A stretch of DNA of 56,932 bases, the filler included, from Circinaria calcarea (lineage: Eukaryota): NCBI GenBank assembly GCA_051942165.1. It is 7 parts of 7 records of this genome, joined end to end, with 100 filler letters (N's around TTAATTAATTAA, not from the genome) between each part and the next. Parts side by side here need not be neighbours in the genome. Positions count along the whole stretch, not along the records: positions 48,910 to 56,932 come from JAVECS010001187.1; 6 more parts are not named here. The stretch is one strand, 5' to 3'. Position numbers and translations under genes: made by a program. The notes under the pieces were generated by a model. It was not told where the DNA came from and did no database searches. It worked only from the letters and a program-made list of their open reading frames with translations. This document shows positions 8,080-56,932 of the stretch, piece by piece. Positions within the stretch are counted from its first letter, which is position 1. Each line of letters starts with the position of its first letter.

Positions 8080-8179
8080 NNNNNNNNNNNNNNNNNNNNN
8101 NNNNNNNNNNNNNNNNNNNNNNNTTAATTAATTAANNNNNNNNNNNNNNNNNNNNNNNNNNNNNNNNNNNNNNNNNNNN
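8080..8179. other. Artificial contig spacer
   Basis: 44 N + TTAATTAATTAA (stops in all six frames) + 44 N. Confidence 0.99.
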
Positions 8180-16245: not shown

Positions 16246-16345
16246 NNNNNNNNNNNNNNNNNNNNNNNNNNNNNNNNNNNNNNNNNNNNTTAATTAATTA
16301 ANNNNNNNNNNNNNNNNNNNNNNNNNNNNNNNNNNNNNNNNNNNN
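16246..16345. other. Artificial contig spacer
   Basis: N44-TTAATTAATTAA-N44. Confidence 0.99.
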
Positions 16346-24401: not shown

Positions 24402-24501
24402 NNNNNNNNNNNNNNNNNNNNNNNNNNNNNNNNNNNNNNNNNNNNTTAATTAATTAANNNNNNNNNNNNNNNNNNNNNNNNNNNNNNNNNNNNNNNNNNN
24501 N
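24402..24501. other. Artificial contig spacer
   Basis: N44-TTAATTAATTAA-N44. Confidence 0.99.
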
Positions 24502-32544: not shown

Positions 32545-32644
32545 NNNNNNNNNNNNNNNNNNNNNNNNNNNNNNNNNNNNNNNNNNNNTTAATTAATTAA
32601 NNNNNNNNNNNNNNNNNNNNNNNNNNNNNNNNNNNNNNNNNNNN
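32545..32644. other. Artificial contig spacer
   Basis: N44-TTAATTAATTAA-N44. Confidence 0.99.
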
Positions 32645-40685: not shown

Positions 40686-40785
40686 NNNNNNNNNNNNNNN
40701 NNNNNNNNNNNNNNNNNNNNNNNNNNNNNTTAATTAATTAANNNNNNNNNNNNNNNNNNNNNNNNNNNNNNNNNNNNNNNNNNNN
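40686..40785. other. Artificial contig spacer
   Basis: N44-TTAATTAATTAA-N44. Confidence 0.99.
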
Positions 40786-48376: not shown

Positions 48377-48809
48377 ATGAGGACTTGGATAATATCTTGC
48401 TTCTAATATACCAGCGAGGGTTTTCTTAGTTCTGTTATGGCATGCAACGAATCTTTTACTCTTACTTGTGGATGAGCACCTCACGGTGGAAAATGGGTCA
48501 TCCAGTCGTCCGGTTCCTTTGAATATCCAATTCCTCTTTGTGGTTTAATCATGTGCCACACGAGCCATACTATCTTAACCTATCTTATCCCCGATATCAA
48601 CAAAGACTATTAGATTTTTTTTAAGAGGCATATTTCTTATGGATTTTTCTCCAAGTGAAACTGACCACTCGAACCCCCTTAATACAATAGACAATAGTAG
48701 ATGGAGGTACTCTTTTCTCTTAATCCCAACAACGATATATACCCGCATTCCAAAATCTAGACCGTACCGTACGCTTGGATATACGAATCGATCCAGCGCG
48801 GGGGGGGGG

Positions 48810-48909
48810 NNNNNNNNNNNNNNNNNNNNNNNNNNNNNNNNNNNNNNNNNNNNTTAATTAATTAANNNNNNNNNNNNNNNNNNNNNNNNNNNNNNNNNNN
48901 NNNNNNNNN
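48810..48909. other. Artificial contig spacer
   Basis: N44-TTAATTAATTAA-N44. Confidence 0.99.
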
Positions 48910-50062
48910 GAATTAAGCGACGACCCCCCCTGAGACTCGGGGTAAAAACCTCGCCTATGTTGGAAGTCCACAATAAGAGCATTTTCGTAGCATAGATAGT
49001 TTTACACACTTATATGCTAATCATACATGCTGCTCAACAGCCCCATAGCCTGTGCTTTCCGGACTCGGTTGCGTCGAAGGCGAAGAGTTAGAAGTACGCG
49101 GTGAATGGAATAATTTAATAAATATATGATTGAAAAATTTACAGCTGGGGAATTTATACAGTGTTAGAAAAATATATATTAAATACAGAGCCAAGCATAC
49201 TCTATGCCATGCCGAACTCTGTGCCGAACTTCTATACGCAGAAGTTCTGTACTACCCCATATTAACAATAGCGGTGGTTGCAGAGTTTTCCCCTTGGCTT
49301 CGCAGTTTACGAACCACACATGTTATATAGTATATCGACTAATGCGTACACACTGAATACCGTTTTCATGCATTGCCTAAGTCTCTTCCTGCCATGTATT
49401 CAACATGGTGGGGTTTCTTAATTAGACGTTGGTCCTATTAGGATTCAAGACTTACAGCTGGACAGAAGTTTACTCCCAACACCAGGGTCGGTAGATTCAC
49501 ATTGATGCGTGGGAGGGGACCTGAGATAATCCACGATTGTATACACAGAAGGTTGTAGTTCGATGAACGGGGGTACTTGTGGCCCCTGGCGATCAGACTC
49601 TCGGGCTGTTAAGCTTCTAATGTGTTTTCGCGTCTGCGCAGAGAAAGGGAGAGGGAAAGGGAGATTAGAAAGGTGGCGTGCATGGAACTAGCACCAATGG
49701 ATCTCGTCATCCCTACCAACGAACCACGCCCCTCCTCCCCTTACCTCGTCAGATCTCCGAACTCTACTGTGGAATGTTTACATATTCATATCCACGGCTA
49801 AGCAGCAGAGAATAACCCTCTCCTTCCTTCCCCGAAGTCCCCCTTTGAGATAAGAGAAGGTAGTCTAGTTCTCGGCCATAGGATTCGGGAGGCAGGAGGA
49901 GGGAAACGAGAACAGAGAGCCTGCAGGTTGGAGAAGAGGATTTAATGGCCCATCATCACCACCGACTGATTCTGACTCTGCCTCTGACTCTTAACTTCGA
50001 CACAACCTTGCCCTTCCCCCGCATGAAAGTATCGAGAGGAGGTAGGGTAGATAAGCCTTAAA

Positions 50063-50607
50063 TCACGTTGCCTCAATCTCATGGTATCTAAATCCTTCTT
50101 CCTCCCAGTTTCTCGTCAGGCAATCCAAGATACCTATAATATCTTTTGGGCTATCCACGCAATGAACGCAGCTCGAGATCCCACCCCAGAAATAGAACTT
50201 GTCGCCATCCTTGAAAAGGTATAAGGCATCGTCCGCCTGCCCGAGTATAGGAATAGGGTTGATGAATCGGGTTTCATAACCATAATCATTGAGCTCTTGT
50301 GCGTCTGGGACGGCGTCGAGCAGATCAGGATCGTTACACCAGTCCGAAGGGATCAGGCTCTCCGGCACGACCTTGTAAAATGCGCGGCCCTTGTAGTGCT
50401 GAATTTGAAGAGGATTCTGTTATCAGATATAGACGTTAGTACTATGAATATATATTGTTTGAGATGAGCGTACCATGGGACTTTTGCTCGTCGAAGCCGT
50501 AGTCAAGGCTTTCCCGTGAAACGATGTATTCTAAAGTATGTAGTTAGATACACTTAGAACGCACAGCTGTGAGGGTGGTAAAAAAGACTAACTCGGGTCG
50601 CGGCCAT
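50063..50607 (-). CDS. Small acidic protein (141 aa), putative SUKH/Smi1-Knr4-like immunity protein
   Basis: Exons 50607-50593, 50530-50474 and 50416-50063 with phase-0 GT-AG introns and CTAAC branch sites. Core sequence NPIPILGQADDALYLFKDGDKFYFWGGISSCVHCVDSPKDIIGILDCL. Gene model is well supported; the fold call is inference. Confidence 0.6.
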
Positions 50608-51187
50608 AGTCGTAACTCGAGGGTACTGAAATAGGATAGCTAGGACGTTTCGAAATTTAGGTACTACAGGTTTGTATGTCGACCGAAAAGCGAAGGATCG
50701 AACAAATCGACCGAGCATCGGTGAATTCTTCTCTCAGAATGAAGGACCAAGCTCTATTGGAGAACCGTCGTGTAGGAAGCAACGTAGGGTCGTCAGGTTA
50801 TGGCGTAAGGGCATGAGGGTTCGAGGTCAAGGAAAGGTAAAGGGGATAGCGGAGTTTCATAGCCTTCGGTGAGATGATTATGTTCTTTGGGTTTGGTCAT
50901 TTGAGTAGGCTCGGCAGAGTTTCATTCACGATACTTTGAATTACTGGCGCCTCAAATGAATTGATGGAAAATAAGTTGACCCGATCCGATGATCTCTATT
51001 CACTTTATACAATGCCTCGGTATAGCAATAGATCAATATTTAAGTTCATAGCATCCCCCAAAACTAAATATTCCTGTAGCAGTTAGAAAACTGCTTAAAG
51101 TACATGCAATCTCTATCTGTCTAGCCTAATAACGTAGGCTCCTCCAAAACCCTATCAATCCTCCGTCTACTACCATCAGCTAAGACC

Positions 51188-52321
51188 ATGGCATCCCCGA
51201 CCCTTGCTGGACGTATCATTAAACCGGCGCACCTCCTATTCGACATCAACCAAGGGCTATCCTTTAACAAAGCTGATGTGAGTTTTACCCGGGAGCCTAA
51301 GCCAAAGAATATCCTGCCAATGATTTTTGTAACCTTAAAGATACTAACACGAAGGGGGAACTAGATAGCAGCTTTCTTGAAGACCACGCCCGGAATTCTA
51401 AAAGCTAATGGACTGCAAGGGGATGAGCTCAAGTCACTACAGGATTGTGTTGATATATTACGTACGAACATGTAAGCTTCAGTAACAATCCCAGCTACTA
51501 TCACGGATCAATGCTGAGGTTCCACTAGCGAAAACGAAAAGGTAGTAGTTCCGAACCTTGACAAACCACCTGTGGCAAGTATTAAAGGGGTTCGAGTGCC
51601 CCTTTACTCTACTTCAGACATGCTAGCTCACATTCTTTCTACCACTGGGATTCCCGAGAAAAGGCAGGATCCGAGCGAACAAGCAACCATGGAAAACTAT
51701 TATGTCCCCTACCTCGCCATGTTCCATCAGTGGAACAATGTTATCTCCCCAAAATCAGTGTACCAGCCGTATATGGCCTCTATTCTGGTCTTTGGTACCG
51801 ATGGGTTATCGCCGCCTTTGATCTTAGGGTCCTCAAATTACAGGCAAAACGATCAAAAGAGTTTGCTCATAGAACGGGCACGAGCCGATCTGAAAATTGC
51901 AGGTTTGATTCCAAAACTAGAAACGAAGTCAACCATCCTGGCAGATAACTACGGAAACTGCGCCGAGACGACCCAATGGCTGATTATGAGGTAGGAATCT
52001 AAAATGCTGAAATGTAGCCATTTCTCCTTAAGCGCTATGCTAACGAATTTGCCTAGGAAACTTGGGCTTTCCAAGGCAGGAGTGAGTCGAGGAATTGCGT
52101 TGGAGAAAACCAAGGGGAACTCTGGTATGAAGACGTGGGACCCTAATAACGTTGCACAGCGGTTGCGCCATCCCTGCCTTGTCTGTGGACAATTGGCCTG
52201 CCAAGTCGGATTCGAAGAGAAGGATATCGAGAGTCATTTCGGAATTGCAGAAACTGCGCGAAAACTAAATCCTGATTGGAAACCCGGGAAAAGGCAGCAA
52301 AAGGGGCCGTTCCAAAAGTAA
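51188..52321 (+). CDS. Zinc-dependent deaminase-fold protein (CxE...PCxxC; YwqJ-like toxin deaminase type), 307 aa
   Basis: Exons 51188-51277, 51365-51471, 51529-51990 and 52057-52321 join in frame (924 nt). Motifs MASILVF, LILGSS, YGNCAET, SRGIAL, RHPCLVCGQL. Confidence 0.75.
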
Positions 52322-54827
52322 GAGGTAGGTATTTGGAAGCAGATTGTACTATAGTCTGGAATGTGTTACGATCCCATTGACTAGTACAGGAGAATGTTTT
52401 CATTGGGACTTTTTCAAAGACGGATAGACTACCTCTGTCACGGGAGTGCAGGCATGCAAAGAAATGTGATAGAATTCTTCCATTCTATCTAGCGCCTGTT
52501 GAAAGGTTCTTTTGAGACCTGCCTGCTCCTTCCTTCTTTCTTATATCAACCTCTGAGGTAGCCTTTTGGTGATGTATAGCTAACTCTACAGCTTTCCAAT
52601 TAAGCAGCCAAAAAAAAAGCAAATCCTATCAGCTCGCTGGTAGTCTCAAGTCGTTCTTGAAAACCCATGCTCAACGGTGGTTTGGCGGGGGCGGGTATTC
52701 TAGCAGCACGGGTAGAAGTCCTGACTGTGAAATCCATCTTCACATTAAGAATTTCAGTCCGTCCCAGCACCATGAGAATAGACGAGCGATACCAGTCCGA
52801 GCTGGAAACTGCTAGTGTATTTCCGATCATCCAATCGGAAAGTGTATGGAGGAGTTATTAACTTAGTTATGCAATTGTAGAACCGCAAAAGGGGGGGGGG
52901 AAGGGGGCGAGCGTAATGCGACCTCCTCAAGCTATGAGATCGGGATGCATTACCAGTCCAGAGTATCTCCAGACTGCATTAGCAGTGGAGTCCGGCTCAC
53001 CCTTTCGGGGTAATAGACCGCCAGTCCGCGCTTTTGGGTCCCAGTGCATTTGAGGCCCTCCAGTAGAGTGTGTAATTGATAGGGGGGCTACCAGCGGCGG
53101 GCTACCTGATGCTTACTAAAGAGCCGGGCAGGAGTCCTTCTCTGCGGACCCAATCCTGGATACTGCAAATAGGGTGGATAGAGCTGAGGGGGATTAATCC
53201 TCCTCTCTTTTTTTTCCATAGACTAGACTATTTCAACTCGCTATCGCCTTCCCAGAAAAAGCCAAGAAAGGCCCCATTCTTTGTCAGGAATATGCGTCCC
53301 GTAACAGGCGCGGAATGAGGCGATCAAACGCCCCCTCGGATGTTTGCCGACTTCATGTTTGTACATGTCTTTCTTCACTTTAGACGCCCGTAGTAGGCTC
53401 ACGGCAGTAGCGCTATTAAGAGTCATGGTTACCTTTCATAAAAGCTTCCCGTGGCGCTTTTTGCCGTAAAGCCCCCGTACGTACGGACCTCTTCCTCCCT
53501 CTTCCTCCCTCTTCTTGCCCTAGGTGCATGCCTTCTTCCCATTACAGAGAGAGCCCATTCCGTCTCCGCACATGGATTTCCTTGACGAGTTTAGAGGAAG
53601 AGAGAGAGAGAGAGAGGTCTTTGGACACTCAGGGTTCGGCTTTAATACCCACCCGTATTACAAGGCGTCCAATGAAATTATCGCCCTGGCAACAAAGTTC
53701 TGTGATATATCTCTTGGATAAGGAGAAAAATGTTATGCAATACGGGAATATCTTACCCCGTTCTGTCAGGTGTCCATCAGCACCGCCGTCCATGATGTGA
53801 TGTGGTGACATGCAGAGAATTAAACAACATCTCTAACCGACCAGGCAAGCCAGGGTAAAGGTACGGGCTTCCGATGAATAAGAAAAAGCGCCGGGTAGGG
53901 TCTGCCGGGTAGGGTGTGAGGTGTGAGGGTGTGATGAGACGGATCCGAAGTAGATGGGGGTGGAAGGGGTTTTCAATCCCATTGACGATACCTAGGGAAG
54001 AAACTTTCAAAGCTGAAGTCAACTGAATCAAGTAATCAAACAATCATCGTACAGAGATTATACTTTGGGAAGGGAAAGAGTTGAAGTGATTTGAGTTGGA
54101 TGATGAAATCCATTAAATGTCTATATACAGCTGATTTTCCTCCTCCTTCTTCTCCTCTAGACGGCCCTTCCTTTCTTTCCTCTTGCCAGATTGGATATAA
54201 GGAGCTAAAACTAATCCGCCCGAGTTGATAAACCGATAGTCGGATAGCTGTGATTCCTCCCGTTGTCCTGATGAATATCTTACACCACCCCCACGTCCGT
54301 CAGACATCTTTCTGGCAAGAAAAATTGAGAAAGGAAAGGCTGGAGTCGCAAAAGAGCGATTGTGGAGAATAAATATAACAAAGAAAAGATTCCAGAGACC
54401 CGGATTGGCTTGCTGGTAAACTCGCAAAGGAGCAAACAGTCTTTTCTTTGGTCGTAAATGGTAGCGAAAATTTGCCGTGAGGAGGTATTAGAAAATATGG
54501 TGAAGGAAAAGCAAACAACAACGCGAGGCCACTGCAAACAGTTCTATAGAGGGCCATAGGGGTATGAAGCAAGGTTATCAAACATCGAAAGCGTCGAAGA
54601 TAACACTAGGACGGGAATAAAACTGGCGCTGGTGTTAAATCCAACGTCGTAACGAGTGATGTGGGGTACCGCGGTGGTAATTATCCATACCAGACGGAAG
54701 TGGTTTCGGGTGAGACAAATTCTATACAAATTGCCATCTACTGCTGATATGGTGGCAGGCGGTGAGAGGCGCGTAGATGTTATACAATTGAGGGGGGGTT
54801 TTTTTTCTCTTCAAAAGTCGTGGTCGA

Positions 54828-56932
54828 TCATCGGTAGAGGGAACCTGCCGCAAAAATACTTGCAGCAGCGGAGGCTGCCCACTCGTTATCTTCATATGGC
54901 GGAGTCGGCCATGAGGTTGTATCGTTTTCCTTTGGTCGAGGCTTTGTGATGTTGAGCGGTGTGGCTGGTTCACCCATCAAGGAATTATTATAAACCACTC
55001 CGTTTCTCTTCTCTGATGGTGACGGGGTTGGATATGGATTGGTCATGGTATTGGTGTTGGTAGAATTTTGCGGCGGTCGACGATTGTTATCTTTACTTGC
55101 CAACACGTTGCGATGGCTGTTGGCATCAGGTTTGCTAACCCTATCTAGCCCCTTCACCGCGCGCTGCACACCATGAAGTGCTTCATCGAGAAGTTCGTCC
55201 TCCTCGTCTGGTGTTTCGTATCTATAAGCTGGATGGGTTGAAAGCTGTAGTGCACGACGTGTTCGACTAGATATGGGACCGGGACCTACATCTGGCGTTG
55301 AAAGATGTTCCATGGACAGAGATGCCGATGCCCGCGCGACCGAGTGGTTCCTCTTCAAGCCAGGGCTTGCCAAGGCCGTGGTAGAGCTCTGTCGTGTAAG
55401 TTGATTGGGATGACCTGAAGGTGCTGGCGAGGACGCTTCGAGGTTATAGCGCACGTTTTCCAAGGCTCTATCCAATTCAGTAAAATCGGTCTTCGGCCCG
55501 GCTTCTGCCATTGTGTGCTGATCCAAAGCCATCGACGACCTATTACTCGCCCAAGGTGCGCAGCCCGCATTGGCCTCGAGGTCCCCATATTTAGGAGAGA
55601 GTGGTGTTTGATGGCGTCCTGACAGTCGTCGTGCTCGCTTCCGCAAATGAGAGAAGAAGCTTTCCTTCTGCCCATTGGTAGGTGAAGCAAGGCCTCCATA
55701 AGCATTTAGTGTCCGTTCAGCTTCTTGTCGGTGTAAATCGGCATAATGGCTTCCATTCGATGCGACAGATAATTGCCGACCAATCTTCTTGGTATTCATA
55801 GTCTGACCGACAACATCACTTTCCAAGCTGCTGTTTGCCTGAGCAGTAATTGCGGCTGACAATGGTGAGATGGGTCGTATTGACGGAAGAATTGGCATTG
55901 GCGCACCAATTGAAGGCGTTGTACCGTTAGTCCATGTGGCTCTCTTATTTGCTTGGGGACGTGCTTTGGGCTCGATTGAGATTTCTGGAGCGACACTAGA
56001 ATGTATGGATGACACGCTAGGGGAAGTAATTTGGGTAGTGCTGTGATGCTGAGGAACGGCTGGAGCACTATCGCGCCCGATGAGAGATTTCCTGAACCAC
56101 GAAGCTTTTGACGTCAGTGGTGGAATTTCAACTGCCTCCTTTGAGGACCTAGTGTCATAAGCTGAATGCTTCCTTCCAAGTAACCGAGACGTCGATGGCT
56201 TTAGTCGCAAAGGATCGATAGCGTCCACGAAATACTCGTGATTCATTGCTTGTGTCGAAGTTGGTCGATTTTTCGGATCCCACATCAAACACCAGGTAAC
56301 AAAATTGCTCAACGCTACTGGCCATTGAGGAGGCTGAAGTATAGTTTCCATCGAGTGAGGAGCCATCTAGAGGAATCAGCGACCCATTCTCCGAAATGTA
56401 AATGTCAACATACCTTTGGGAAGGAGAATCCTAGTTTTTGAGCAAGTCGGGTCCCCTCTCTCCAATCACCACCTCCCACCTTGGCGCCAGATTTGTTATA
56501 CCAGTTACCAGGACTTCCCATGATCTCACAAACTCTCCATACCTGATCGACTTCGTTACCACCAGGGAAAAGGGGTTTGAGCGTGGCAATCTCCACCGCC
56601 ATGGCACCAAGGGCCCACATATCAACTGGTGCCGAATACTCTCCGGCGCGAAGCAGGACTTCAGGGGCTCTATACCAACGAGTCGAGACATACGTGGTAT
56701 ATGGCAGTCTAGATTGCGTTTCTCTGGCTAATCCGAAATCGGCAATTTTGATGGAATAAAGTGGTGGTGTAGATGGAGGTGTCATCAGGGTAGAATACCT
56801 TTTGAGTGATATGCCTGAGTCATAGGGTGCGGTCGTCGACACGAGGATATTTTCCGGCTTGATATCTCGATGGAAAAAGTTGTGGGCGTGAATGTGATCG
56901 AGTCCAGCGAGTATTTGGAAGAGTATGCTTTT
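54828..56932 (-). CDS. IME2: Ime2/ImeB-family CMGC Ser/Thr kinase, 5'-truncated
   Basis: FFHRDIKPENILV, IKIADFGLARE, PYTTYVSTRWYRAPE (TxY), LFPGGNEVDQV, intron 56367-56413, WDPKNRPT, long C-terminal tail ending WPTPPYE..EWA. Confidence 0.92.

What the first reader, a model, noticed from the sequence alone, without database searches (positions are those of the whole stretch)
50063..52321. Candidate fungal toxin-immunity pair: zinc deaminase head-to-head with a SUKH-like gene
Seen: two intact, cleanly spliced orphan genes are divergently transcribed from a 580-bp spacer (50608-51187), flanked by over 1 kb on each side without recognisable genes. One has the CAE...PCxxC deaminase signature; the other is a 141-aa acidic protein with a PIL-G..YLF..G.KFYFW..IL..L pattern. 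Established: in bacterial polymorphic toxin systems, YwqJ-like and related deaminase toxins are often encoded next to SUKH-superfamily immunity genes. Inference: this is a eukaryotic, intron-containing version of such a module, co-regulated by a bidirectional promoter. Neither protein has an evident signal peptide, which favours an intracellular role (toxin-antidote selfish element, allorecognition, or antiviral/anti-transposon editing) over a secreted effector.
Basis: partly seen in the sequence, partly recalled or inferred. Interest (0 to 1): 0.85.

Follow-up and report, generated by a model that had tools for sequence, protein, structure and literature searches.

The report
Fungal deaminase-like gene with acidic neighbour
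A lichen-fungus contig carries a gene from a small, unnamed family of probable zinc deaminases, head-to-head with a small acidic gene of unknown fold, and nothing yet shows that the two form a toxin and its antidote.

Summary
Two intron-containing genes diverge from a 580-bp spacer on an 8,023-bp contig of a Circinaria calcarea MAG. The window is a chain of such contigs.

The + gene (307 aa) belongs to a small ascomycete family: 11 hits among 1.84 billion representatives, plus five new proteins from a profile search. No Pfam or NCBIfam model recognises it. Its most conserved residues are GNCAE and PCxxC.

Evidence for a deaminase is consistent but individually weak:
- Fold matches to CDA-type deaminases reach only Z 2.8-4.6.
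- HHalign against YwqJ and CDA alignments gives P about 0.001-0.007.
- One relative has a sub-threshold SNAD4/APOBEC3 hit.

Two of the YwqJ clade's three published signature features that I tested are met; the conserved histidine is absent.

The - gene (118 or 141 aa, pI 4.3) is real, with one 65%-identical homologue. Nothing supports a SUKH fold:
- No Pfam hit.
- AlphaFold pLDDT 44.
- HHalign no better than shuffles, though that test had no power.

Conserved linkage could not be tested, and the complex predictor was unavailable.

Verdict: probable new deaminase-superfamily family (about 0.75-0.8). Toxin-immunity pairing is unproven (about 0.2).

The parts
51188..52321 (+). Deaminase-like gene, 4 exons (51188-51277, 51365-51471, 51529-51990, 52057-52321), 307 aa (P0001)
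   Evidence: The exon model reproduces the NCBI protein exactly. Introns are GT..AG.
51188..51471 (+). Exons 1-2: N-terminal helical region of about 65 aa, not shared by most family members
   Evidence: AlphaFold helices 13-68. Alignments A1 and A4 show most homologues starting near residue 70. VIA matches to this part are generic helical bundles, Z<=5.4.
51959..51967 (+). Codons for C210-A211-E212, within GNCAE: putative zinc ligand and catalytic glutamate
   Evidence: Invariant in 12 of 12 sequences. Located at the start of model helix 213-222.
52172..52186 (+). Codons for P259-C260-L-V-C263 (PCxxC): putative second and third zinc ligands
   Evidence: P259, C260 and C263 are invariant in 8 of 8 sequences; one member has PCxxxC in its raw sequence. 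HHalign aligns this stretch to the PCxxC helix of the YwqJ and CDA alignments.
50608..51187 (.). 580-bp spacer between the two divergent start codons (43% G+C)
   Evidence: Sequence; composition. No promoter test was made.
50063..50607 (-). Small acidic gene. The 141-aa model uses exons 50607-50593, 50530-50474 and 50416-50063. The database model (118 aa, P0002) uses ATG 50476-50474 plus 50416-50063.
   Evidence: pI 4.34.
50183..50254 (-). Most conserved stretch of the small protein (residues 56-79 of P0002, IPILGQADDALYLFKDGDKFYFWG)
Evidence: Twenty-two of 24 residues are identical in P0003. HHalign placed it on the SUKH-3 beta-meander, but without significance.

Best explanation
The + strand gene encodes a member of a small, so far unnamed Pezizomycotina family of the zinc-dependent deaminase superfamily. 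The layout is closest to the YwqJ clade of bacterial toxin deaminases.

Inferred mechanism:
- C210, C260 and C263 hold a zinc ion.
- E212 shuttles the proton.
- The enzyme hydrolytically deaminates a base, most likely cytosine or adenine in DNA or RNA, inside the cell. The protein is basic and has no N-terminal hydrophobic stretch.
- The family is patchy and fast-evolving, and it has a near-identical paralog in the same genome. This fits a conflict or defence role such as anti-transposon, anti-virus or non-self control.

The - strand neighbour is a real, conserved, acidic small protein of unknown fold. In this reading its head-to-head position is ordinary fungal gene packing, not a cognate inhibitor relation.

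Shown: the gene models, the family and the conserved motifs. Inferred: the fold assignment, zinc binding, the substrate and the biological role.
For: Family and motifs:
- A HMMER search of 1.84 billion representatives found 11 hits at E<=1e-3.
- A profile search listed 10 proteins, 5 of them new. Two new ones are named fungal proteins, from Trichocladium antarcticum and Gaeumannomyces tritici. One search named Lambiella insularis and Cyphellophora europaea.
- CAE is invariant in 12 of 12 sequences.
- C210, G232, P259, C260, C263 and F281 are invariant in 8 of 8 sequences. All 7 full-length members carry CAE-x(n)-PC-x(2-3)-C.

Fold:
- In the AlphaFold model, CAE sits at the N-terminus of a helix, followed by a strand (228-234) and a 24-residue insert before PCxxC.
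- VIA-align against 48,161 chains showed 50 rows, 8 of which cover the C-terminal domain. Six of those are CDA-fold deaminases: 2g84 (Z 4.6, 124 aligned), 3b8f (3.7), 7bv5_D (3.4), 3oj6 (3.4), 7nz7_B (3.4) and 1tiy (3.2).
- In the second look, the top 5 of 25 rows are blasticidin-S or cytidine deaminases, Z 2.8-3.8.

Profiles:
- HHalign of the family against a Streptomyces YwqJ alignment gave P 0.0017-0.0066; 0 of 100 column shuffles reached the score. A permissive alignment places GxCxE, PCxxC and HFG colinearly.
- HHalign against a PF00383 alignment gave P 0.0012; 0 of 80 shuffles reached it. This is as strong as bona fide YwqJ against PF00383 (P 0.0009).
- P0018 has sub-threshold Pfam hits over its CAE-PCxxC region: SNAD4 (E 0.042) and APOBEC3 (E 0.08).

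Other:
- The Atlas gave a lead to a bacterial cluster in which 11% of members carry YwqJ-deaminase, score 0.83.
- pI is 9.23, and the N-terminus has no hydrophobic segment.
- Published YwqJ clade features are Gx[CH]xE, an insert between strand 3 and CxxC, and C-terminal truncation (passages of PMC3239186).
Against: - No curated model recognises any member. Pfam and NCBIfam gave nothing at E<=10 except the two sub-threshold hits.
- Neither P0001 nor the A1 and A4 profiles matched any PDB sequence at E<=10.
- Foldseek found nothing at E<=1e-3.
- All structural Z scores are below the noise level that the tool itself quotes, where a typical best Z is 7-8.
- The PCxxC part of the model has pLDDT below 50.
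- HHalign probabilities are only 6-19%, and the column-shuffle null destroys any short motif, so it tests little more than the motif itself.
- A YwqJ HMM does not separate family members from shuffled decoys.
- P0001 lacks the conserved histidine of the YwqJ insert: no His lies between residue 190 and CAE.
- The substrate and role are pure inference.
Confidence: 0.45

Rival explanations
1. One reading: the two genes form a eukaryotic toxin-antidote or toxin-immunity module. The small acidic protein binds and blocks the deaminase, and both are co-expressed from the shared spacer. The pair would act in allorecognition, as a selfish element, or as a restrained defence enzyme.
For: - The genes are head-to-head with a 580-bp spacer.
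- Their charges are complementary, pI 9.23 against 4.34.
- Both are lineage-restricted.
- YwqJ-clade toxins are published as paired with SUKH3 and Imm6.
- In 20 of 20 Streptomyces genomes compared by eye, the YwqJ and SUKH-3 matches lie on the same strand about 60-300 bp apart.
- In 5 of 9 genomes a SMI1_KNR4 match lies divergently about 0.8-0.9 kb from YwqJ.
- The Atlas's nearest clusters to the small protein are small bacterial hypothetical proteins, one with SMI1_KNR4 in 29% of members. Scores are 0.80-0.82, a range that shuffled proteins reach a third of the time.
- The stretch IPILG..ALYLF.DGD.FYFW resembles the SUKH beta-meander by eye.
Against: - There is no SUKH or Imm family hit.
- HHalign of the small protein against SUKH-3 (P 0.17-0.2; 20 of 100 shuffles reach it) and SMI1_KNR4 (P 0.46; 42 of 80) shows no signal.
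- The small protein has only one detectable homologue, while the deaminase family spans at least three ascomycete classes.
- An 89%-identical paralog of the deaminase exists in the same MAG and in other assemblies (contigs of 11,019 and 4,135 bp). No second copy of the small protein was found by the word-based search.
- None of the contig lengths recorded for the 19 deaminase-family sequences looked up equals 18,209 bp, the length of the contig that carries P0003. This is weak evidence, since only contig lengths are visible.
- Divergent neighbours are common in compact fungal genomes (general knowledge).
Confidence: 0.2
2. The protein is a deaminase-fold enzyme acting on a free base, nucleoside or nucleoside-like small molecule. 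Possible roles are salvage, self-resistance or secondary metabolism, in the manner of cytidine or blasticidin-S deaminases. The neighbour is unrelated.
For: - The best structural matches are cytidine and blasticidin-S deaminases and a CDA-type protein of Nitrosomonas.
- The CAE form of the motif is that of the CDD/CDA clade in the published table (passages; Table 1 text seen).
- HHalign against PF00383-type proteins is as good as against YwqJ.
Against: - Z scores are at most 4.6.
- The family has a 24-residue insert before PCxxC, an extra N-terminal alpha+beta region and a short C-terminus, unlike compact CDA tetramer subunits.
- It is patchy and fast-evolving with a recent paralog, unlike housekeeping salvage enzymes.
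- No biosynthetic genes are visible on the 8-kb contig.
Confidence: 0.2
3. It is not a deaminase. The conserved Cys/Glu/Cys-x-x-Cys residues form a structural zinc site or another active site in a fold unrelated to deaminases.
For: - No significant sequence or structure match to any deaminase.
- The C-terminal part of the model is unreliable.
- One relative, not identified individually, gave a Prok-RING_2 hit at E 0.0079. This shows that CxxC-type motifs attract unrelated zinc-finger models.
Against: - Several independent weak signals all point to deaminases rather than to varied folds.
- The glutamate two residues after the first Cys, the proline before the CxxC and the helix-start position of CAE are the specific deaminase arrangement.
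Confidence: 0.15

Closest known systems
YwqJ-clade deaminases of bacterial polymorphic toxin systems (Pfam PF14431) with SUKH-3 or Imm6 immunity genes (Iyer et al. 2011, PMC3239186)
   Same: - A Gx[CH]xE motif (here GNCAE).
- An insert between strand 3 and the CxxC motif.
- A short C-terminus ending soon after helix 3, with an HF(G) motif like the Streptomyces members.
- A small neighbouring gene.
- Colinear motif alignment by HHalign.
   Different: - No PF14431 hit at E<=10.
- No conserved His in the strand-2/helix-2 insert.
- Eukaryotic, with three introns.
- An extra N-terminal alpha+beta region and, in this member, a helical head.
- No trafficking or secretion domain.
- The neighbour is divergent, not a downstream operon gene, and is not recognisably SUKH.
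- The published eukaryotic YwqJ members are basidiomycete, not ascomycete.
Fungal OTT_1508-like deaminases (Pfam PF14441; Iyer et al. 2011)
   Same: Fungal, intracellular and extremely divergent, with lineage-specific copies. [quoted passage not shown] The authors proposed a role against selfish elements or in heterokaryon conflict (passages).
   Different: That clade belongs to the helix-4 division and has a GxxK motif before CxxC. There was no PF14441 hit here. A profile comparison could not be made: only 1 of 101 Streptomyces genomes had a member, and no fungal sequences could be fetched.
CDA-type cytidine and blasticidin-S deaminases (PF00383-type)
   Same: CAE plus PCxxC zinc site. These are the best structural matches. 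HHalign P 0.0012 at the PCxxC helix.
   Different: Z is at most 4.6. This family has inserts and extensions, a patchy distribution, and no Pfam hit.
SUKH superfamily immunity proteins (SMI1_KNR4, SUKH-3)
   Same: Small acidic alpha+beta protein encoded next to a deaminase-like gene. A Gly/Asp-rich beta-hairpin stretch resembles the SUKH meander by eye.
   Different: No family-model hit, no profile signal and no usable fold model.

Membership tests
Deaminase superfamily (zinc-dependent CDA-like fold) | [HC]xE at the start of helix 2 and PCxxC at the start of helix 3 as zinc ligands | tested here: met
   CAE is invariant in 12 of 12 sequences. P259, C260 and C263 are invariant in 8 of 8. CAE lies at the N-terminus of model helix 213-222.
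Deaminase superfamily (zinc-dependent CDA-like fold) | Three-layer alpha/beta/alpha fold with the beta1-alpha1-beta2-alpha2-beta3-alpha3 order | tested here: inconclusive
   The model has pLDDT 64, and below 50 around PCxxC. Deaminases are 6 of the 8 rows covering the domain, but at Z 3.2-4.6. The top 5 rows of the second look are deaminases at Z 2.8-3.8. Foldseek found nothing.
Deaminase superfamily (zinc-dependent CDA-like fold) | Significant match to a curated deaminase model or solved deaminase sequence | tested here: not met
   Only sub-threshold hits were found: SNAD4 at E 0.042 and APOBEC3 at E 0.08, both in one relative. There were no PDB sequence hits. HHalign probabilities were 6-19%.
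YwqJ deaminase clade (PF14431) | Gx[CH]xE in helix 2 | tested here: met
   G208 is nearly invariant, and C210 and E212 are invariant. The feature is taken from PMC3239186 Table 1.
YwqJ deaminase clade (PF14431) | Insert between strand 3 and the CxxC motif | tested here: met
   The model strand at 228-234 is followed by 24 residues before P259. An insert of similar length is present in all 7 full-length members.
YwqJ deaminase clade (PF14431) | [quoted passage not shown] | tested here: not met
   P0001 has no His between residue 190 and CAE, and no conserved His column lies there in A1 or A4.
YwqJ deaminase clade (PF14431) | Match to the Pfam model | tested here: not met
   No PF14431 hit at E<=10 for any of the 17 family sequences scanned. 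A YwqJ HMM built here does not separate members from decoys.
SUKH superfamily | Match to SMI1_KNR4, SUKH-3, -4, -5 or -6 models | tested here: not met
   No such hit at E<=10 for the last-exon translation, P0002 or P0003.
SUKH superfamily | Core fold of four helices and six strands (hairpin plus four-stranded meander; PMC3113570) | tested here: inconclusive
   The AlphaFold model has pLDDT 44 from a two-sequence alignment. VIA-align gave a single row at Z 2.1.
SUKH superfamily | Profile-profile similarity to SUKH families | tested here: inconclusive
   P 0.17-0.46, no better than shuffles. The positive control, SUKH-3 against SMI1_KNR4, also failed (P 0.06).
Toxin-immunity pair | Linkage of the two gene families conserved across genomes | not testable with these tools
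   No fungal genome collection is held. Metagenome, prokaryote-genome and viral scans found no relatives. Only contig lengths of homologues are visible.
Toxin-immunity pair | Physical binding of the two proteins | not tested
   Complex prediction was full and then unavailable.

The most novel reading that the evidence does not exclude
A chromosomal, intron-bearing toxin-antidote module in a lichen-forming ascomycete. An intracellular YwqJ-like nucleic-acid deaminase would be held in check by a fast-evolving acidic inhibitor expressed from the same bidirectional promoter. The module would act in allorecognition or as a selfish, drive-like element. This would be a eukaryotic counterpart of bacterial deaminase-immunity pairs and a possible source of new base-editing enzymes with a natural off-switch.
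Probability: 0.15. Interest if true: 0.8.

Novelty: new variant of a known kind. Interest (0 to 1): 0.4.

Why it matters
If the family is an active deaminase, it adds an ascomycete clade that no current family model recognises. The superfamily has repeatedly supplied mutators, editors and base-editing tools. The family would also extend the published picture of fungal toxin-derived deaminases (OTT_1508-like, DYW-like, and basidiomycete YwqJ-like) to lichen-forming and other Pezizomycotina.

If the acidic neighbour proves to be its inhibitor, this would be a rare eukaryotic toxin-antidote pair of bacterial type.

As it stands, the locus is a testable lead, not a demonstrated system.

Tried and rejected
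Searches for related loci:
- JGI metagenome contigs, scanned with the deaminase alignment and the small-protein alignment: no relatives.
- Prokaryote genome contigs: none.
- Viral contigs: none.
- Alignments A1 and A4 were too diverse for pattern search, so the smaller A2 was used.

Not available:
- Sequencing runs: none was listed, and no RNA holder was listed.
- Whole genome of the window: not held.
- Complex prediction: queue full, then declared unavailable. Nothing was folded.

Structure:
- Foldseek of the P0001 model against the PDB: no match at E<=1e-3.
- VIA-align of the small-protein model: one row, Z 2.1 (FleQ REC domain), not meaningful at pLDDT 44.

Sequence:
- PDB sequence search of P0002: 7 hits at E 0.2-0.88, none relevant.
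- NCBIfam: only chance-level hits.
- YwqJ HMM against family members and 100 shuffled decoys each: no separation.
- HHalign of the small protein against SUKH-3 and SMI1_KNR4: no signal, but the control shows no power.

Fetching comparison families:
- PF14431 in 201 Bacillota genomes: 0 matches among those searched.
- PF14441 in 101 Streptomyces genomes: 1 match, too few for an alignment. The OTT_1508 comparison was therefore not made.

Literature: searches (listings and abstracts seen) turned up no paper describing a fungal deaminase-SUKH pair or this family. A TOD6 search was uninformative.
Full report
**Where the finding lies.** The window is not one stretch of chromosome. Six linkers of the form N44-TTAATTAATTAA-N44 cut it into pieces of about 8 kb. 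The finding sits on the last piece, 48910-56932 (8,023 bp). A word-based protein search identified the larger gene product as 'MAG: hypothetical protein Q9187_005249 [Circinaria calcarea]' on a contig of exactly 8,023 bp. The source is therefore a metagenome-assembled genome of a lichen-forming ascomycete. No whole genome is held for the window.

**The observation.** On the + strand, four exons (51188-51277, 51365-51471, 51529-51990, 52057-52321) reproduce the 307-aa NCBI protein P0001 exactly.

The database holds a 118-aa version, P0002, that starts at the ATG ending exon 2. The first 24 residues are therefore uncertain.

All five introns are GT..AG and 57-87 nt long. Four have a CTAAC branch site 17-23 nt from the acceptor. 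The start codons are 580 bp apart.

The left 'empty' flank is only 1,153 bp up to the contig break. On the right, about 2.5 kb without an ORF above 126 aa separates the pair from a protein-kinase gene at 54828-56932(-). I count the observation as confirmed, with these corrections.

**The larger protein has a family.** HMMER against 1.84 billion cluster representatives found 11 proteins at E<=1e-3 (4 at <=1e-10). Most are exon-sized ORFs from metagenomes that stop at the exon-3 boundary.

A profile search listed 10 proteins, 5 of them new. Named members come from four fungi:
- Lambiella insularis (Lecanoromycetes)
- Cyphellophora europaea (Eurotiomycetes)
- Trichocladium antarcticum (Sordariomycetes)
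- Gaeumannomyces species (Sordariomycetes)

The same MAG also holds an 89%-identical paralog on another contig (Q9187_003982, partial, 11,019 bp).

No member has a Pfam or NCBIfam family. Neither P0001 nor the A1 and A4 profiles matched any PDB sequence. The Atlas placed P0001 next to unnamed Ascomycota clusters (0.94-0.96). Its only named lead was a bacterial cluster with YwqJ-deaminase on 11% of members (0.83).

**Is it a deaminase?** The strongest fact is what is conserved.
- CAE is invariant in 12 of 12 sequences.
- Among eight sequences that are otherwise 23-34% identical to P0001 (apart from a 76%-identical paralog fragment), the invariant columns besides Met1 are C210, G232, P259, C260, C263 and F281.
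- All seven full-length members carry CAE, then 50-70 residues, then PC-x(2-3)-C.

The AlphaFold model has pLDDT 64 overall, 75-87 for residues 80-190, and below 50 around PCxxC. It puts CAE at the start of a helix, followed by strand 228-234 and a 24-residue insert before PCxxC.

Structure searches gave the following.
- Foldseek found nothing.
- VIA-align against 48,161 chains was dominated by the N-terminal helical head. Of the 8 shown rows that cover the C-terminal domain, 6 are CDA-fold deaminases (Z 3.2-4.6) and 2 are inositol-monophosphatase-like.
- In the second look at Foldseek's ranked chains, the top five rows are blasticidin-S or cytidine deaminases (Z 2.8-3.8).

These Z values are below the noise level that the tool states. 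Only their consistency counts.

**Profile comparisons.** I built comparison alignments from Streptomyces genomes. PF14431 (YwqJ) was found in 150 of 151 genomes; one of these, G333, is unpublished, which leaves 149 of 150 without it. PF00383 was found in 11 of 11.

- Family against YwqJ: P 0.0017-0.0066, probability 6-15%. No column shuffle reached the score (0 of 100). A permissive alignment puts GxCxE, PCxxC and a C-terminal HFG in the same order and spacing.
- Family against PF00383: P 0.0012, 0 of 80 shuffles. This is the same strength as genuine YwqJ against PF00383 (P 0.0009).
- Negative controls gave P 0.08-0.41.
- A YwqJ HMM does not separate family members from shuffled decoys.

One relative, P0018, has sub-threshold SNAD4 (E 0.042) and APOBEC3 (E 0.08) hits over its CAE-PCxxC region. 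Taken together, I put about 0.75-0.8 on a deaminase-fold zinc enzyme.

**Which clade?** Iyer et al. [quoted passage not shown]

The first and third features are met here. The short C-terminus fits the fourth. The histidine is absent, and the Pfam model does not match. I therefore do not file the family as a YwqJ member, only as YwqJ-like.

The same paper describes fast-evolving fungal OTT_1508-like deaminases with an N-terminal alpha+beta domain. I could not compare with them, because only 1 of 101 genomes had a member.

**The small protein.** It is a real gene. P0003, from an independent ENA contig, is 65% identical over 86% of its length (E 1.2e-38). The protein is acidic (pI 4.34, against 9.23 for the deaminase-like protein).

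Nothing identifies its fold.
- There are no Pfam or NCBIfam hits.
- PDB sequence hits are chance-level only.
- The AlphaFold model has pLDDT 44 from a two-sequence alignment.
- VIA-align gave one row at Z 2.1.
- Atlas scores of 0.80-0.82 point to small bacterial hypothetical proteins, one cluster with SMI1_KNR4 on 29% of members. Shuffled sequences reach this range a third of the time.

HHalign against SUKH-3 (61 of 61 Streptomyces genomes) and SMI1_KNR4 (9 of 9) is no better than shuffles. My positive control, SUKH-3 against SMI1_KNR4, also failed (P 0.06). The test therefore has no power, and the SUKH question stays open.

**Is it a pair?** The bacterial precedent is real. In the 20 Streptomyces genomes whose coordinates I compared by eye, the YwqJ and SUKH-3 matches are on the same strand, about 60-300 bp apart. 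In 5 of 9 genomes a SMI1_KNR4 match lies divergently 0.8-0.9 kb away.

For the fungal locus, only position and charge complementarity speak for a pair. Three weak points speak against an obligate module.
- The deaminase family is much wider than the small protein's.
- The 89% paralog has no detectable second copy of the small protein.
- None of the contig lengths recorded for the deaminase-family sequences equals that of the contig carrying P0003.

Synteny could not be examined, because no fungal genome collection is held and all scans were blank. The complex predictor was unavailable.

**Verdict.** The finding is a probable new family of the deaminase superfamily in ascomycetes, next to a conserved acidic orphan. 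The toxin-immunity reading is a reasonable hypothesis at about 0.2, not a result.

Literature searches found no description of this family or of a fungal deaminase-SUKH pair (listings and abstracts seen).

Noticed in passing
window 8080-8179, 16246-16345, 24402-24501, 32545-32644, 40686-40785, 48810-48909: The window is a chain of seven contigs of about 8 kb, joined by N44-TTAATTAATTAA-N44 linkers. A run of ten G precedes the last linker (48800-48809). Adjacency across these points is artificial.
   Followed up: partly
window 54828-56932 (-): A Ser/Thr protein-kinase gene lies here. Its kinase domain is on the ORF 56405-56932 (Pkinase E 5e-33). A long low-complexity C-terminal tail is on the 512-aa ORF 54828-56366. 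It is the only other recognisable gene on the contig and runs off the window end.
   Followed up: partly
loci L121-L180, L252, L254-L256, L250 (Streptomyces genomes G003, G204-G263): In Streptomyces a YwqJ-type deaminase domain is nearly universal (150 of 151 genomes searched, one of them unpublished). A SUKH-3 gene follows it directly, and in 5 of 9 genomes a divergent SMI1_KNR4 gene lies 0.8-0.9 kb upstream. This is a conserved chromosomal triad rather than a variable polymorphic-toxin locus. Most copies read CPE instead of CAE.
   Followed up: partly
window 51188-51471 (+), residues 1-65 of P0001: The N-terminal helical head, encoded by exons 1-2, is absent from most family members. It matches only generic helical bundles (HDOD, LAS1L-NOL9; Z about 5). 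It may be a lineage-specific addition or a gene-model artefact.
   Followed up: no
protein P0004 (same MAG, other contig of 11,019 bp); P0015 and P0017 (contig of 4,135 bp): A recent paralog of the deaminase-like gene (89% identical over exon 3, 76% over exon 4) exists in the same MAG and in other assemblies. No second copy of the small acidic protein was found.
   Followed up: partly
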